Shown here: positions 1 through 4,413 of the stretch, piece after piece
Layout of the letters: every line of letters begins with the position of its first letter
How positions within the stretch are numbered: position 1 is the first letter of the stretch
From: a virus
Lineage: Duplodnaviria; Heunggongvirae; Uroviricota; Caudoviricetes
DNA: 4,413 bases
IMG/VR virus record: IMGVR_UViG_2778261454_000003
Strand: one strand, 5' to 3'
The notes under the pieces: model-generated
The model's database searches: none
Told to the model about the DNA's origin: nothing
Seen by the model: the letters and a program-made list of their open reading frames with translations, nothing else
Position numbers and translations under genes: made by a program

Positions 1-40
1 CGCTTACCGCTCATGGGCACCTCTCTTTAAGCCATCTTAA

Positions 41-400
41 ATGACTCTGAGGTGTCTGTTAAACCCGTGGCGATTCAGTATGAGCATTATCAGTACTGCT
101 AAAGGTGCTGCAAATGGACAATTCCACGGCGGCATAGATGAGCTACCAGCAGGGTATGATAACAAATCATTCGTACTTAAAGCTGGTGAACGTGTAGTAC
201 AACCTGAAGCTAACAAGAAACTAACAGCATTTCTTGATAAACATGAAGGGGGTAGTAGTTCTGGTGATGTGACCATTAACGCACCTTTGATCATTCAAGG
301 TGATGTAGCTGGTGATGATAAGAAATTCAATGAAATGTTGAAGAAACATCAAAACAGTGTAGCACAGGCTTACAGAAGCTCTATTAAGCGTAATTCATAA
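41..400 (+). CDS. Lambda-type tail tape measure protein, C-terminal domain-like ORF (possible orphaned fragment; start uncertain, ATG 41 or ATG 80)
   Basis: Open frame from ATG 41 to TAA 398-400, followed at once by a hairpin terminator. The translation (Gly-rich stretch, then ELPAGYDNKSFVLKAGERVV ... DVTINAPLIIQGDV ... FNEMLKKHQNSVAQAY) resembles in pattern my recollection of the lambda gpH C-terminus (unverified, no search run). Position just upstream of gpM-like/gpL-like genes matches lambda H-M-L order. Hand-counted GC about 43% on one 60-nt stretch. No clear Shine-Dalgarno before either candidate ATG, and an in-frame TAA at 38-40 closes the frame upstream. Confidence 0.55.
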   Translation: MTLRCLLNPWRFSMSIISTAKGAANGQFHGGIDELPAGYDNKSFVLKAGERVVQPEANKKLTAFLDKHEGGSSSGDVTINAPLIIQGDVAGDDKKFNEMLKKHQNSVAQAYRSSIKRNS

Positions 401-428
401 GAAAGCCCGATTAGGGCTTTCTGTTTCT
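400..428. terminator. Bidirectional intrinsic (rho-independent) terminator hairpin between convergent genes
   Basis: Perfect inverted repeat GAAAGCCC (401-408) / GGGCTTTC (414-421) with 5-nt loop GATTA (409-413), extendable by an A400:T422 pair. On the + strand it is followed by the T-rich tract TGTTTCT (422-428). On the - strand it is followed by TTATGAATTA (complement of 391-400). It sits directly after the + ORF stop at 398-400 and overlaps the stop codon of the - strand ORF (411-413). Confidence 0.6.
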
Positions 429-1037
429 CATATATTCCTTTTTTATTTTATATACAACCTTACGCATTCTATTTGCTTTTATCTTTCTAAGTAATTCACT
501 GAAACTAAAAATTGTGCTAATCGCAATGAGGAAAGTGTACACAAAAAGATTAATTAGCTTTCCGCTTTCAAAGTCCCAGAAAGGTTTGAATATGAAAACC
601 CCAACAAATAGCGGAAGTAAAAAACATCCAATCAATGAACTAACTACAGCAACACTAAGAATGTCTCCTTTTGAACTTTTTTTGATTTTACCATTCTTTG
701 GATTGTAAGCATCTCGTAATCCTTTATAAATTTTCAGTTCTAAGTTGAATTTCTCCAACTGAGAATAAAAATTCTCAATTTGTTTAATAGTTGTAAATTT
801 TAAATTCGTTTTGAAGTTGAATTTTGCTATGTCATGTTCAGCTTGCTCTATTTTAGCTAATTTTTCATTGAAATATTGCTTTTCGCCAATGAATATGCCC
901 CATATTTTATTAGCGACTATAGCCATGCTTCCACTACGATAGACAATATAAAGTGTGACCACGACAATCATCACATTAAGTAGTATTGCGGTTATTGCTG
1001 GAAATGACTTTATAAAAAGCTCAAAAGAATCTTTCAT
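411..1037 (-). CDS. Hypothetical integral membrane protein (208 aa, predicted 3 TM helices, basic C-terminal tail); moron-like antisense gene, candidate superinfection-exclusion/defence protein
   Basis: A 627-nt open frame in very AT-rich DNA (hand-counted about 25-33% GC on three 60-nt stretches), where stop codons are frequent by chance, so coding is likely. Hydrophobic segments at residues 12-33 (FPAITAILLNVMIVVVTLYIVY, nt 939-1004), 126-150 (ILSVAVVSSLIGCFLLPLFVGVFIF, nt 588-662) and 162-179 (LINLFVYTFLIAISTIFSF, nt 501-554). A charged, heptad-like region lies between them (residues 52-110). The C-terminal tail (residues 184-207, nt 417-488) carries about 12 Lys/Arg in 24 residues. Opposite orientation and lower GC than the flanking tail genes. 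No recognisable Shine-Dalgarno before ATG 1035-1037. No family recognised. Confidence 0.7.
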   Translation of the reverse strand: MKDSFELFIKSFPAITAILLNVMIVVVTLYIVYRSGSMAIVANKIWGIFIGEKQYFNEKLAKIEQAEHDIAKFNFKTNLKFTTIKQIENFYSQLEKFNLELKIYKGLRDAYNPKNGKIKKSSKGDILSVAVVSSLIGCFLLPLFVGVFIFKPFWDFESGKLINLFVYTFLIAISTIFSFSELLRKIKANRMRKVVYKIKKEYMRNRKP

Positions 1038-1054
1038 GGATAAATACTCTAAAC

Positions 1055-1068
1055 AAGGAAGTCGAGGA
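1055..1068 (+). promoter_or_regulatory. Ribosome-binding site for the gpM-like gene
   Basis: AAGGAAG (1055-1061) and GAGGA (1064-1068) lie 4-11 nt upstream of ATG 1073. Confidence 0.5.
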
Positions 1069-1069
1069 C

Positions 1070-1098
1070 ATTATGGCATCTTTTTCAAATAATGTGAA
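1070..1098 (-). promoter_or_regulatory. Candidate sigma70-type promoter for the minus-strand membrane-protein gene
   Basis: Read on the - strand: -35 TTCACA (complement of 1093-1098), a 17-nt spacer, then -10 CATAAT (complement of 1070-1075) preceded by TG one base upstream (TGcCATAAT, extended -10-like). The predicted transcript start near 1062 gives a leader of about 25 nt before ATG 1037. Sequence pattern only; the -10 overlaps the start codon of the divergent gpM-like gene. Confidence 0.25.
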
Positions 1099-1630
1099 GG
1101 TTACAAACTTTCAAATTAAAAGTACTGAACCAATTTACTCTAATCAAACATGGTCAGGGCAACGTATCATGAGATCAACGGGTATTCAGTTCTACAATAT
1201 TCAGTTCACACTCAATTTCAATCCTTCAGCACTAACTGAAGTTAATAGCTTTTTAGCTCAGTACGCACAAGGTAAACCATTTACTTTCTCACTTGGTGTA
1301 GCTGGTATATATCATGGTACACAAACTGGCTCAGTTACCAGTACTGGATTAATTCAACCTGGAAATATGATTATCCCAACAAGTAGCAATACATTAGCTG
1401 TTGGTGAATGGATTCAATTCACTAATCATAACAAGCTATATCGAATTGTAGAGCGTGCTGGAACAAGTATTACTATCTTTCCCGCACTACAGAATACAGT
1501 ACAGGCAAGTGAAGTAATCAAATATAACAACCTCATGATAGAGGCGGTATTAGATCCTGATAATGATTACACAATGCCAGTAGGTAACATTATGAACATC
1601 ACACTAAAGGCTACAGAGAACATACAATAA
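1073..1630 (+). CDS. Minor tail protein, lambda gpM-like (185 aa, with a C-terminal extension relative to lambda gpM)
   Basis: ATG 1073 with a Shine-Dalgarno just upstream; stop TAA 1628-1630 overlaps the next start (TAATG). The N-terminal ~80 residues (WSGQRIMRSTGIQFYNIQFTLNFNPSALTEVNSFLAQYAQGKPFTF) resemble in pattern the remembered lambda gpM core (YSQR ... KTYSVTLSVPREEATVLESFLEEHGGWKSFLW). Synteny: lies between the tape-measure-like ORF and gpL/J-like genes. Hand-counted GC about 40%. Confidence 0.8.
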   Translation: MASFSNNVKVTNFQIKSTEPIYSNQTWSGQRIMRSTGIQFYNIQFTLNFNPSALTEVNSFLAQYAQGKPFTFSLGVAGIYHGTQTGSVTSTGLIQPGNMIIPTSSNTLAVGEWIQFTNHNKLYRIVERAGTSITIFPALQNTVQASEVIKYNNLMIEAVLDPDNDYTMPVGNIMNITLKATENIQ

Positions 1631-2253
1631 TGAATGCTAGTACATACACAAATGCTAATCTTCTCAAGTACTGGAAATTAGTTAGAGGAACTACCAAAAC
1701 ACAACTAAGCCTAATGGATATTATGAGTTTAGGCGTTTTCGTAACGTGTTTTGATGTACTACCAAAAGGTACAAATGGTTTTCACTGGACTGATTCACTA
1801 ATTGATATTCCTCTTGATGGTTATCAATATACAAGTTTTCCCGATATTATCAGTGGTTTACTACCTTCATACTCTGAACAAAAGGGTATTACGAATGATG
1901 CTATTAACTTCAAGATAAGTAATGTAAATGCTTCAGTACGTGCTCTTGCTTTGGGCGGGTTCCTTAAAGATGCTCAGATGAATATCAAGTTAGTTATCTT
2001 GAATCCATATGATAGTACTGTAATTGATTCAATGCTTATGTTTACTGGATTCATTGATTACATTCAAGCCGTAGCAGATCCAAATGCTAAAACCAATGAA
2101 ATGACTGTATATGTCAATTCTGTATATAAGAAACTTGATCGTCAACCAGCTCTAATAGCTGCTAATTCAGTATATCAATCTTATTACAAGGGTGATGAAT
2201 ACTTTTCATTACTTGGTCAGGTTAACCAAAATCAAAATTGGAAATACAAATAA
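1630..2253 (+). CDS. Putative minor tail protein, lambda gpL-like by position (207 aa)
   Basis: ATG 1630 overlaps the upstream stop (TAATG), indicating translational coupling; stop TAA 2251-2253. Assignment rests mainly on gene order (after gpM-like, before the small tail protein and J-like gene) and size. Sequence resemblance to lambda gpL is weak and from memory; the C-terminal Cys cluster of lambda gpL is not evident. Confidence 0.7.
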   Translation: MNASTYTNANLLKYWKLVRGTTKTQLSLMDIMSLGVFVTCFDVLPKGTNGFHWTDSLIDIPLDGYQYTSFPDIISGLLPSYSEQKGITNDAINFKISNVNASVRALALGGFLKDAQMNIKLVILNPYDSTVIDSMLMFTGFIDYIQAVADPNAKTNEMTVYVNSVYKKLDRQPALIAANSVYQSYYKGDEYFSLLGQVNQNQNWKYK

Positions 2254-2657
2254 TGAAAAATCTACATAACGAAATTATGAATATCATTCAAACAGCAATT
2301 GATAGCCCTTATCAGTTCGGAACTAATGATTGTAACATTATAGTACTCCGATTAATTGACTTAATTAACGGTACTACAACCCTATCAGATCGCCAATATA
2401 CGAGCGTTAAAGAGGGTATAGCGGGTTTAAACAAGGAAGGATGGAACCACACAGGGGAAATAGTTGAAGCCTATTGTAAGCCCGTACAACACGTTATAGA
2501 TGGTGATATCTGGCTAGATCCTGATAACCCTCTAATCATGGCAGTAGTCGTATCAGGTCGTGTACTTGGTGTTACTGCTAATCATGACGGTTTTGAACTT
2601 CAACCGAAGCCAACAAAAGGAACATATTATAGAGTAAGGAAACATATAGATGGGTAA
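2253..2657 (+). CDS. Small tail-tip protein (134 aa from ATG 2253; 139 aa if ATG 2238), possible papain-fold (NlpC/P60-like) peptidase, gpK-like by position
   Basis: ATG 2253 overlaps the upstream stop TAA 2251-2253 (same TAATG coupling as at 1630); the alternative ATG 2238 would overlap the upstream gene by 16 nt. Stop TAA 2655-2657. Contains a Cys in a G-x-x-D-C context (YQFGTNDCNIIV) and downstream His residues (WNHTGEIVEAY, QHVIDGD, ANHDGFEL), as expected for NlpC/P60 Cys-His catalytic residues. Motif-level evidence only; no JAB/MPN-like domain is apparent. Confidence 0.7.
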   Translation: MKNLHNEIMNIIQTAIDSPYQFGTNDCNIIVLRLIDLINGTTTLSDRQYTSVKEGIAGLNKEGWNHTGEIVEAYCKPVQHVIDGDIWLDPDNPLIMAVVVSGRVLGVTANHDGFELQPKPTKGTYYRVRKHIDG

Positions 2658-4308
2658 GAGTTTAGGCGGCTTTTTTGGAGCCATTATAACAGCGGTCGTA
2701 GTTGCTGCTGCGGTCTACTTTTCAGGAGGAACGGCATTAGCTGCGGTTGGTTGGGGTGCTGCGGCAGGGGCAGTAAGTTTAGTTGCTACATCTATGCTAG
2801 CTCAAGTAGGGGTAACGGGTTATGGGGATGTATCGGATAGTATAAGTAGGTCAGTTTCCCCAACTACCGGATTGCCAGTACTGTTTGGTGGCGATCTTCC
2901 TCATAAGAATGGTACTTCAGGCGGTTCATTTGTTCTAACTGGTAGTATTGTTAGTTGGTACAACGTACCTGATTCAGATTCACAGTACCTATTTTCTGAA
3001 CAAGCAGTAGCGTATGCGGGTACTGAAAAACATATTGAACAAATTTACATTGATAATGAAGCAGTACTATCAGCCCCAATTACGCAAGATGGAATAGTAC
3101 CGAAAACATCTATTTCTGGTAAATATGCCGATGTACTCCAATTGGAAGTACGTTTTGGTGGTGATTATACAAGTACTAAATCCCTAGCAACTCAATACGC
3201 TGGACCGAAATGGACTAATAAATTTCTTGGTAAAGGTGTTGTTAGTATCAGTACTGTTATCAAGAAAACTCAAAAATCACTTGAAAATAACATTCTCGTA
3301 AATGACCAATTCGCACTAACTGTAGAAATGAAAGGTCAACGTATCTTTGATTTTGTAGATGGTACTATTAAAGCTAGTAGTAATCCACCTTCGATTATAT
3401 ACGATTACTTAACCAATACTGTGTATGGTATGAGTATTGATCCTAGTCTTATCAATCAAGATACATTCGCAGAAACTGCGGCATATTGTGATGCTTTTGA
3501 AATGTACGCCAACGGGGCAATTAGTTATCAAAGTACATTTATGGATAACATTGAAAATATTTGTCAGAGTTTTGGCGGTATCATGTATGTACACGCGGGG
3601 CAGATATGCCTAACTACAGACCGTAAAACTGTATCTGTAGCGTCATTTAATGAGCGTAATATGGTTGGTGGTATACAGGTTAGTACTTCAGGTGTATCAG
3701 ATTATTTCAACGCCGTAGATTGTAAATTCAAAAACCCTCAATCAATCTACACAACGGATGTAGTACGTATTCCTTCAGATATTACCATTGATGAAGCAAT
3801 CCAACATGACGGGCAAGTTATAGCATTATCACGTGATTATACTTGGAGTTATGATCAAGAAGTCATAGCTAAAATGGCAAACATAGATGTACTAAAAGCA
3901 AAATATGCCCTACGTACTATCAGCTTTACTACAAGTGAAGGATGGGATTTAAAAGTATGGGATGCTATTGATGTTAGTAATGATGAACTTGCTATTTCAG
4001 GTAAATTTAAAGTACTGAATAAAGATGTTAGTACTGATCAAGAGAATATTGGCTACGTTACTATCACTGCGGTGGAGGCACCAGATCAGATGTATGATGG
4101 CGTTGATCCGGGTGTATGGTCGCCGGGTGGTGTGATTAGCTTCCCTCAGCTATCAGTACTTCCACCATCTAACCTACAGGCTGTTAAGAAAGGTAATACT
4201 ACTGCTGGTTCGGTTATTGATCTAACGTGGGATGCTTCACCAGATCCATACCTACGCGGTTATTATGTGTACTATAAACTTAATAGTTCTTTGATCCTAC
4301 CCACGTAA
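2650..4308 (+). CDS. Tail tip / host-specificity protein, lambda gpJ-like N-terminal region fused to a gpI-like Gly/Ala-rich hydrophobic N-terminal segment; ends prematurely within an FN3-like domain (552 aa)
   Basis: ATG 2650 with AAGGA (2636-2640) 9 nt upstream; overlaps the upstream stop (ATGGGTAA). Residues 1-90 (GGFFGAIITAVVVAAAVYFSGGTALAAVGWGAAAGAVSLVATSMLAQVGV ... GLPVLFGG) resemble the hydrophobic Gly/Ala-rich segment I recall in lambda tail assembly protein I. Residues about 240-330 (IIYDYLTNTVYGMSIDPS ... AAYCDAF ... ICQSFGGIMYVHAGQICLTTDR) resemble the remembered conserved J-family tail-tip domain (lambda J: WCLWDMLTHPRYGMG ... QYCDQ ... TLTFVQDR). Near the C-terminus YVTITAVEAP is followed by PPSNLQAVKKGNTTAGSVIDLTWDASPDPYLRGYYVYYK, an FN3-like beginning. 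Stop TAA 4306-4308. Lambda J is over 1100 aa, so this ORF looks truncated. Confidence 0.85.
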   Translation: MGKSLGGFFGAIITAVVVAAAVYFSGGTALAAVGWGAAAGAVSLVATSMLAQVGVTGYGDVSDSISRSVSPTTGLPVLFGGDLPHKNGTSGGSFVLTGSIVSWYNVPDSDSQYLFSEQAVAYAGTEKHIEQIYIDNEAVLSAPITQDGIVPKTSISGKYADVLQLEVRFGGDYTSTKSLATQYAGPKWTNKFLGKGVVSISTVIKKTQKSLENNILVNDQFALTVEMKGQRIFDFVDGTIKASSNPPSIIYDYLTNTVYGMSIDPSLINQDTFAETAAYCDAFEMYANGAISYQSTFMDNIENICQSFGGIMYVHAGQICLTTDRKTVSVASFNERNMVGGIQVSTSGVSDYFNAVDCKFKNPQSIYTTDVVRIPSDITIDEAIQHDGQVIALSRDYTWSYDQEVIAKMANIDVLKAKYALRTISFTTSEGWDLKVWDAIDVSNDELAISGKFKVLNKDVSTDQENIGYVTITAVEAPDQMYDGVDPGVWSPGGVISFPQLSVLPPSNLQAVKKGNTTAGSVIDLTWDASPDPYLRGYYVYYKLNSSLILPT

Positions 4309-4309
4309 T

Positions 4310-4413
4310 ATGGACACAGGCCTAAGCGAGGTTCTTGTTTTCAAATTGTTCCGGACTGAGGCCGCCACACCAACTGTGCCGCCGCCACCGATTGTAATCA
4401 CATTCGATATAAT
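4310..4413 (+). CDS. Possible start of a downstream ORF, or a frame-shifted continuation of the J-like gene (partial, runs off the window end)
   Basis: ATG at 4310-4312, one nt after the J-like stop. The +1 frame is open from 4295 to the window end (SYPRNMDTGLSEVLVFKLFRTEAATPTVPPPPIVITFDI...), including a Pro-rich linker-like motif. No Shine-Dalgarno. Hand-counted GC about 50% over 4309-4413. A minus-strand frame is also open across 4300-4413, so coding strand and reality are unresolved. Confidence 0.2.
   Translation, partial: MDTGLSEVLVFKLFRTEAATPTVPPPPIVITFDI

What the first reader, a model, noticed from the sequence alone, without database searches (positions are those of the whole stretch)
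1..400. Tape-measure C-terminal-like ORF is orphaned: stops in all three forward frames within the first 44 nt
The ORF at 41-400 resembles the C-terminal domain of lambda-type tape measure proteins, which are normally the last about 100 residues of a protein of 600-1000+ aa. Here the same frame has TAA at 38-40, and the other two + frames stop at 28-30 and 42-44, so no long upstream ORF can continue into it without a frameshift. Either the tape measure gene is disrupted (a decaying prophage), a recombination or deletion junction lies at about 1-40, or the domain is encoded as a stand-alone small protein. The first 40 nt are also richer in GC (20/40 by hand count) than the ORF.
Basis: partly seen in the sequence, partly recalled or inferred. 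Interest (0 to 1): 0.5.

Follow-up and report, generated by a model that had tools for sequence, protein, structure and literature searches.

The report
Tape-measure gene cut by insertion sequence
The small "orphan" ORF is the last 106 codons of a 732-codon phage tape-measure gene, cut off by the end of a mobile insertion sequence in a decaying E. coli prophage, which is an ordinary kind of gene disruption.

Summary
ORF 41-400 exists, and all three forward frames stop at 28-30, 38-40 and 42-44. The cause is neither an indel nor a stand-alone gene.

Bases 1-77 are the exact outer end of an IS3-family insertion sequence. It is 100% identical to E. coli copies and 96% identical to the element annotated ISEhe3 in Shigella phage SfIV. 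Bases 4292-4413 are the end of IS3 itself.

Between them, 78-4291 is 99.6% identical, without gaps, to an intact prophage contig (L014). There the same 106 codons end a 732-aa tape measure protein. In 64 of 71 related loci this segment ends an ORF of at least 690 aa.

The ATG at 41 and the first 12 codons of the reported ORF are IS sequence. The breakpoint is at 77/78, inside tape-measure codon 626.

The window is a whole 4,413-bp contig of an E. coli draft genome that broke at IS repeats. The tail-tip (J-like) gene at the other end is cut by IS3 with a 3-bp target duplication and continues on another contig of the same genome.

The protein is a tape measure C-terminus but not of lambda type. 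Whether the first 626 codons survive beyond the IS could not be determined. This is ordinary and of low interest.

The parts
1..77 (-). Outer 77 bp (left end, IRL side) of an IS3-family insertion sequence, ISEhe3-like. It holds the terminal inverted repeat ending ...GGCGATTCA at 77, a promoter-like site at 62->34 on the minus strand, and the start of orfA (ATG at 14-12 on the minus strand, MSGK...). It carries the three forward-frame stops and the ATG at 41.
   Evidence: The match is 100% over 1-77 and stops exactly at 77 in E. coli genomes. It is 96% identical to the 'ISEhe3 orfA' element of phage SfIV, whose 34-nt terminal inverted repeat ends at the corresponding base. The orfA start was translated and the promoter-like site was found.
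41..400 (+). Codons 1-12 are IS sequence, codon 13 spans the junction, and codons 14-119 are tape measure codons 627-732.
   Evidence: PGAP calls only 80-400 (106 aa, WP_244586348.1).
78..400 (+). 3' remnant of the tail length tape measure gene: part of codon 626, codons 627-732 and the stop.
   Evidence: The alignment to L014 is 99.62% identical, without gaps, and starts exactly at base 78, which corresponds to L014 9999 inside a 732-aa ORF at 8123-10321. PHROG tape-measure hits support the assignment.
400..422 (.). GC-rich hairpin followed by a T-run. It is a terminator-like site shared by the convergent tape-measure remnant and the DUF6216 gene.
411..1037 (-). Gene for a DUF6216 membrane protein (208 aa), sitting as cargo in a variable slot between the tape measure and distal tail protein genes.
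   Evidence: Pfam DUF6216, E 3e-20. The slot is variable across relatives.
1073..1630 (+). Distal tail protein (185 aa).
   Evidence: phrog_1302 'distal tail protein', E 3.5e-16.
1630..2253 (+). Tail protein (207 aa).
   Evidence: phrog_2048, E 7e-24.
2253..2657 (+). DUF6950 tail-module protein (134 aa).
   Evidence: Pfam DUF6950, E 1e-9. phrog_2134.
2650..4291 (+). First 547 codons of the central tail fibre / tail tip (J-like) gene, which is 1100 aa when intact. It is cut by IS3, and the called 552-aa ORF ends with 5 IS-encoded codons.
   Evidence: phrog_31 'central tail fiber J', E 1e-40. Intact relatives are 1100 aa. The L014 alignment ends at 4291.
4289..4291 (.). CTT, one copy of the 3-bp target site duplication made by the IS3 insertion.
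   Evidence: Contig NODD01000121.1 of the same genome (L081) reads IS3 left end, then CTT, then the continuation of J. The two contigs overlap on L014 at 14210-14212.
4292..4413 (-). Right end (IRR side) of IS3, with the last 29 codons and the stop of the transposase on the minus strand.
   Evidence: 100% identical to an annotated 'IS3-like element IS3 family transposase' copy. Translation was checked.

Best explanation
The window is a 4.2-kb piece of a siphovirus-type prophage tail module in an E. coli draft genome, bounded on both sides by insertion sequences. An IS3-family element (ISEhe3-like) has its left terminus at base 77, inside codon 626 of a 732-codon tape measure gene. Only the last 106 codons of that gene lie on this side of the IS. 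Read outward, the IS end happens to carry stops in all three frames and an ATG at 41, so an ORF finder reports a 119-aa 'orphan' that is an IS-phage chimera. The assembly broke at the IS because the IS is repeated, so the ORF looks more isolated than it may be in the chromosome. At the other end, IS3 proper transposed into the J-like tail-tip gene. A tape measure is needed to build a siphovirus tail (established knowledge), so with this gene and J both interrupted the prophage is inferred to be defective. Shown here: both IS termini, both breakpoints, full-length genes in relatives, and simple IS3 insertion at J. Inferred: that the prophage is non-functional and that the chimeric ORF is not a functional gene. 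Not determined: whether tape measure codons 1-626 lie just beyond the left IS (simple insertion) or were lost (IS-mediated deletion).
For: Three independent lines place the left breakpoint at 77/78. (1) E. coli IS copies match 1-77 at 100% and stop at 77. (2) The 99.62% identical, gap-free alignment to the intact prophage contig L014 begins at 78 and ends at 4291. (3) In phage SfIV the 96% identical element has 34-nt terminal inverted repeats whose last base corresponds to window base 77.

In L014 the segment is codons 627-732 of a 732-aa ORF. That ORF hits PHROG tape-measure families along its whole length (phrog_13674, E 1e-88) and sits between tail tube and chaperone genes and a distal tail protein gene. 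In 64 of 71 related loci the segment ends an ORF of at least 690 aa.

The same left junction occurs at 100% identity in contigs from two independent sequencing runs, L079 and L080, so it is not a misassembly.

The window is the entire contig NODD01000075.1 of GCA_002518125.1. At the right end, the IS3 terminus starts at 4292, and the J gene resumes on contig NODD01000121.1 of the same genome after a duplicated CTT. This is in the 3-5 bp range reported for IS3 elements (PMC10379815).
Against: The partner junction of the left IS (tape measure codons 1-626, a target duplication, then the other IS end) was not found. No annotated N-terminal fragment from this genome appeared in the protein clusters examined. 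No matching junction appeared in metagenome or viral contigs. A target duplication for the left IS is therefore untested, and a deletion or other IS-mediated rearrangement cannot be separated from simple insertion. In many E. coli genomes the same 77-nt IS end belongs to a truncated IS remnant, so the left element need not be complete here. PHROG has a 127-position family of unknown function (phrog_21688) that matches this segment best (E 2e-30), so some phage annotations do carry it as a small ORF.
Confidence: 0.93

Rival explanations
1. The C-terminal tape measure domain is encoded here as a genuine stand-alone small protein that is conserved and expressed in its own right.
For: The closest word-index protein hits are all short, 73-172 aa. 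phrog_21688 is a family of ~127-aa profile length that matches the segment. An 80-aa version sits in Citrobacter chromosomes.
Against: The short hits are contig-edge fragments (L005) or lie in decayed remnants next to transposase fragments (L003/L004). In 64 of 71 loci the segment is fused to an ORF of at least 690 aa. The nearest relative, 99.6% identical in DNA, has the full 732-aa gene. The ATG at 41 is IS sequence. No purine-rich ribosome-binding site precedes ATG 41 or ATG 80 (read), and no plus-strand promoter-like site lies in 1-120.
Confidence: 0.02
2. The stops come from a small indel, frameshift or sequencing error at about 25-45 in an otherwise continuous tape measure gene.
For: None beyond the closely spaced stops.
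Against: Bases 1-77 have no similarity to the tape measure gene of L014. Homology starts abruptly at 78, while 1-77 is 100% IS sequence.
Confidence: 0.005
3. The junction is an assembly chimera, with IS reads wrongly joined to a phage contig end, and the tape measure gene is intact in the real chromosome.
For: The window is a short contig of a short-read draft that ends in repeats on both sides.
Against: The identical junction appears in independent runs ERR7733892 and ERR11525534. The break falls at the exact last base of the IS inverted repeat. The right-hand junction has a matching partner contig with a 3-bp target duplication. All 10 contigs that carry the exact 185-aa neighbour protein are only 2-5 kb, which fits real IS flanks.
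Confidence: 0.02

Closest known systems
IS-interrupted genes of cryptic or defective prophages in E. coli and Shigella (IS3-family copy-out-paste-in insertion)
   Same: Exact IS termini abut phage coding sequence. A 3-bp target duplication is present at the IS3 site. The phage structural genes are split into fragments that annotators call as small hypothetical proteins. Draft contigs break at the IS copies.
   Different: Nothing essential differs. The target is an uncharacterised AT-rich prophage family rather than a lambdoid or P2-like one, and the left junction's partner side was not recovered.
Shigella phage SfIV, which carries an ISEhe3-annotated IS3-family element in its tail-fibre region
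   Same: The IS is 96% identical over the terminal 81 nt, with the same orfA start and the same terminal inverted repeat.
   Different: In SfIV the 1,228-bp element is complete and lies between genes of an otherwise complete phage genome. Here only 77 nt are visible, and they cut an essential tail gene.
Lambda gpH tape measure protein (Pfam TMP_2 plus Tape_meas_lam_C)
   Same: It has the same role and the same gene position: after the tail tube and chaperone genes and before the tail-tip genes.
   Different: No detectable sequence relationship exists. The intact 732-aa relative hits neither lambda Pfam model, and BLASTP gives E=0.12. The nearest isolated-phage matches are the C-termini of Vibrio phage tape measures at ~47% identity.

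Membership tests
Tail length tape measure protein (gene remnant) | Sequence homology to tape measure families, aligned to their C-terminal end | tested here: met
   phrog_13674 positions 665-753 of 764 (E 9e-22), phrog_339 positions 978-1108 of 1123, and phrog_2854 positions 739-824 of 855. tblastn hits fall on annotated tape measure genes of Vibrio, Hafnia, Escherichia and Pseudomonas phages.
Tail length tape measure protein (gene remnant) | In relatives, it is part of a long ORF lying between the tail tube and chaperone genes and the distal tail protein gene | tested here: met
   64 of 71 loci have an ORF of at least 690 aa ending in this segment. The gene order is tail tube (Phage_tail_3), 99 aa (chaperone PHROG), 119 aa, 732 aa, then the 185-aa distal tail protein.
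Tail length tape measure protein (gene remnant) | A complete, tail-length-determining ORF is present at this locus | tested here: not met
   Only codons 627-732 are present. All frames are closed upstream by IS sequence.
Lambda-type tape measure (Pfam PF06791 TMP_2 / PF09718 Tape_meas_lam_C) | Match to the lambda C-terminal domain model | tested here: not met
   No Pfam hit at E<=0.1 for the ORF or for the intact relative P0195, whereas lambda H hits both models. BLASTP against lambda H is not significant.
IS3-family insertion sequence, ISEhe3-like (left end, 1-77) | Near-identity to annotated IS copies, ending at the terminal inverted repeat (5'-TG...CA-3' ends) | tested here: met
   100% identity over 1-77 in about 700 E. 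coli records. The end is ...GATTCA. In SfIV the 34-nt inverted repeat is TGAATCGCCAC.../...GTGGCGATTCA and spans a 1,228-bp element carrying orfA and a transposase. The name ISEhe3 is taken from the SfIV annotation and was not checked against ISfinder.
IS3-family insertion sequence, ISEhe3-like (left end, 1-77) | Target site duplication flanking a complete element | not testable with these tools
   The rest of the IS and its far flank lie outside the contig. Searches for the partner junction found nothing.
IS3 (right end, 4292-4413) | Identity to IS3 up to its terminus | tested here: met
   The BLAST match is 123 nt (4291-4413) at 100%, of which 4292-4413 is IS3 sequence. It aligns to a 1,258-bp copy annotated 'IS3-like element IS3 family transposase' with a programmed frameshift. 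The C-terminal transposase codons read on the minus strand.
IS3 (right end, 4292-4413) | Short (3-5 bp) target site duplication showing simple transposition | tested here: met
   CTT is present on both sides. The window ends its phage homology at L014 14212, and contig L081 of the same genome starts at 14210 after the IS3 left end. The 3-5 bp range is from PMC10379815.
Stand-alone small protein (phrog_21688-like) | Own conserved start and independent gene in close relatives | tested here: not met
   Close relatives carry the segment inside a 732-aa ORF. The start codon at 41 is IS-derived.

The most novel reading that the evidence does not exclude
The least ordinary reading not excluded is that the IS-bounded 4.2-kb tail-tip block (tape measure C-terminus, DUF6216 membrane protein, distal tail protein, J N-terminus) is kept in this E. 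coli lineage because something in it is useful. Candidates are the DUF6216 cargo gene, or a tape measure C-terminal peptide expressed from the IS-provided ATG. The block would then not be simply decaying.
Probability: 0.03. Interest if true: 0.3.

Novelty: already known. Interest (0 to 1): 0.08.

Why it matters
It matters little biologically. Insertion sequences disrupting prophage structural genes is a textbook route of prophage decay, and contig breaks at IS copies are a routine property of short-read assemblies. It has practical value for annotation. The 106-aa and 552-aa 'hypothetical proteins' (WP_244586348.1, WP_244586349.1) are gene fragments and should be marked as pseudogenes. ORFs that start within a few dozen bases of a contig end should also be checked against IS termini before being read as novel small genes.

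Tried and rejected
(1) Lambda relationship. A Pfam scan of the ORF and of the intact relative, plus BLASTP against lambda H, showed no relationship.

(2) Solved structures. The 732-aa relative had no hit.

(3) NCBIfam and PADLOC. There were no hits for any protein tested.

(4) The interior 78-4291 in other collections. It has no nucleotide match in 5,426 complete E. coli genomes, 50,697 phage records at blastn sensitivity or PLSDB plasmids.

(5) Attempts to find the other side of the left IS all gave nothing.
- An exact look-up of the 119-aa chimeric ORF found it is not on record.
- Homologue searches with tape measure residues 1-626 and 477-626 found no fragment from this genome, and cluster listings showed none either.
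- Look-ups of P0241 and P0314 did not list this assembly among the 10 places shown.
- Junction patterns in metagenome and viral contigs had no match.

(6) Short homologues as evidence for a stand-alone gene. This was rejected after inspecting their contexts.

Full report
**Observation.** The ORF at 41-400 (+, 119 aa, ATG) is real. GC of bases 1-40 is 0.50 against 0.41 for the ORF. The true composition step is 1-77 (0.49), then 78-4291 (0.37), then 4292-4413 (0.49).

**What the two ends are.** A megablast of the whole window against 5,426 complete E. coli genomes matched only the two ends, both under features annotated as IS3-family transposases.
- Aligned to one such locus (L001), bases 4291-4413 are 100% identical to the end of a 1,258-bp copy annotated 'IS3-like element IS3 family transposase'. 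Bases 1-77 are 100% identical to the start of a different transposase gene.
- The right-hand IS begins at 4292 with TGATCCTACCC.... The minus strand of 4411-4322 encodes the last 29 residues and the stop of the IS3 transposase.
- The left-hand 77 nt occur in 1,764 of 5,426 E. coli genomes. About 700 records match at 99% or higher, and the matches shown cover 1-77 in full and stop at base 77.
- The left end is also 96% identical to an element of Shigella phage SfIV whose first ORF is annotated 'ISEhe3 orfA'. In SfIV that element is 1,228 bp long and has 34-nt imperfect terminal inverted repeats (TGAATCGCCAC... / ...GTGGCGATTCA). The last base of the repeat corresponds to window base 77.
- On the minus strand, ATG at 14-12 opens orfA (MSGK), and a promoter-like site lies at 62->34.

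So 1-77 is the outward-facing left end of an IS3-family element. The three forward stops and the ATG at 41 are simply what that end reads as on its antisense strand.

**What lies between.** Bases 78-4291 align without a gap at 99.62% identity to L014 9999-14212, a 36-kb IMG/VR contig. The alignment starts and ends exactly at the two IS termini.
- In L014 the segment homologous to 80-397 is the last 106 codons of a 732-aa ORF at 8123-10321. The break falls in codon 626.
- That ORF hits PHROG tape-measure families along its whole length (phrog_13674, E 1e-88, and eight further families annotated as tape measure).
- It follows a tail tube gene (Phage_tail_3), a 99-aa chaperone-like gene and a 119-aa gene. 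It precedes a distal tail protein gene.
- Across the 71 related loci from species-representative genomes and IMG/VR, 64 have an ORF of at least 690 aa ending in this segment. Six are shorter, and the contexts that were inspected are decayed remnants. One is cut by a contig end.

The window ORF itself matches the extreme C-termini of three tape-measure PHROGs. It is therefore the C-terminal 14% of a tape measure gene. The first 12 codons of the reported ORF are IS sequence.

**Not lambda-type.** Neither the ORF nor the intact 732-aa relative hits Pfam TMP_2 or Tape_meas_lam_C. Lambda H hits both at E 2e-69 and 2e-21. BLASTP of the segment against lambda H gives E=0.12, and the alignment is to the N-terminal region. 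The closest isolated-phage matches are Vibrio phage tape measure C-termini at about 47% identity.

**Source and reality of the junctions.** The window is the entire contig NODD01000075.1 of E. coli assembly GCA_002518125.1. PGAP as a 106-aa hypothetical protein.
- All ten contigs on record that carry the exact 185-aa neighbour protein are only 2-5 kb long.
- Contigs from independent runs carry the same left junction at 100% identity (L079 from ERR7733892, L080 from ERR11525534). L078 from ERR13951799 carries the same right junction.
- The junctions are therefore real and inherited in a lineage, not an assembly artefact.
- L079 and L080 each have an additional, different IS3 insertion, at window 2897/2898 and 2509/2510. 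IS3 has evidently been active in this lineage.

**The right-hand junction is a simple transposition.** A 173-aa member of the J-protein cluster comes from a 657-bp contig of the same assembly, NODD01000121.1. That contig reads IS3 left end, then CTT, then the J continuation. Its homology to L014 starts at 14210, while the window's ends at 14212, so CTT is duplicated. This lies within the 3-5 bp target duplications described for IS3 elements (PMC10379815). The contig ends in a second IS3 end in inverted orientation. The J-like gene is 1100 aa when intact and is split here into at least three pieces.

**What remains open.** I could not recover the sequence on the far side of the left IS. No N-terminal tape measure fragment from this genome appeared in the homologue lists or cluster listings. 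The exact chimeric ORF is not on record as a called gene. Neither junction pattern occurs in the metagenome or viral collections. Simple insertion, with codons 1-626 just beyond about 1.2 kb of IS, and IS-mediated deletion remain about equally plausible. In many E. coli genomes this 77-nt end belongs to a truncated IS remnant beside lambdoid int/xis genes, so the element need not be complete here.

**Mechanism.**
- Shown: an IS3-family terminus interrupts the tape measure gene at codon 626, and IS3 interrupts J at codon 547.
- Established knowledge: IS3-family elements move by copy-out-paste-in and leave short target duplications, and a tape measure protein is required for siphovirus tail assembly.
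- Inferred: the prophage cannot make tails and is decaying. The 119-aa ORF is a by-product and not a gene. No ribosome-binding motif precedes ATG 41 or ATG 80, and no plus-strand promoter-like site lies in 1-120.

**Verdict.** The tape measure gene is disrupted in a decaying prophage and there is a junction, but it lies at 77/78 and is an IS end. The domain is not lambda-type and is not a stand-alone gene. This is an ordinary, already-known phenomenon.

Noticed in passing
window 404-1072 (DUF6216 gene 411-1037, minus strand): The gap between the tape measure stop and the distal tail protein start is a variable cargo slot. 46 of 66 related loci have under 200 bp there, and 20 carry 500-900 bp inserts. 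A DUF6216 membrane protein gene fills the slot here and in 6 relatives, and some relatives carry a DUF726 gene instead. The gene has its own promoter-like site (1098->1070, 10 of 12 matches with an extended TG) and shares the hairpin at 400-422. It has no PADLOC hit, and its function is unknown.
   Followed up: partly
window 2509/2510, 2897/2898 and 4291/4292; L079, L080 and L081: Isolates of the same lineage carry different extra IS3 insertions in this 4-kb fragment. The same genome has a 657-bp contig of J bounded by two IS3 left ends. This points to a recent burst of IS3 transposition in this E. coli lineage.
   Followed up: partly
window 78-4291; L014 and L006-L076: The prophage family is AT-rich (36.6% GC, in E. 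coli and Enterobacter hosts) and its contigs are about 33-36 kb. It has a 631-aa prohead protease/major capsid fusion and a 1068-aa S74-peptidase tail fibre gene placed before the tail tube gene. It is widespread in Enterobacter, Klebsiella, Salmonella, Citrobacter, Pluralibacter and E. coli. It has no nucleotide match in 50,697 phage records, and J is only ~26% identical to the nearest isolates.
   Followed up: partly
L002-L004, L092-L101: Members of the family sit next to a Hydrolase_3 (ybhA-like) gene downstream of modABC. Citrobacter genomes keep only an 80-aa tape measure C-terminal remnant plus transposase fragments at that site, so independent decay of the same prophage family recurs.
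   Followed up: no
window 1-77; L102, L104: The 77-nt IS end occurs at a median of one copy in 1,764 of 5,426 complete E. coli genomes. It is often part of a truncated IS remnant beside int/xis of lambdoid prophages at bioA-ybhB, for example in phage ev099.
   Followed up: partly
window 2650-2850: The N-terminus of the J-like protein is a Gly/Ala-rich hydrophobic stretch that shows up as a local GC peak (0.49-0.54). It is conserved in the intact 1100-aa relatives.
   Followed up: no
window 1627-1630, 2250-2253 and 2650-2657: The tail genes overlap at ATGA start/stop junctions and by an 8-nt overlap, which is typical of translational coupling. The ORF listing TTG start at 2238 is probably wrong, and the ATG at 2253 is what gene callers use.
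   Followed up: no
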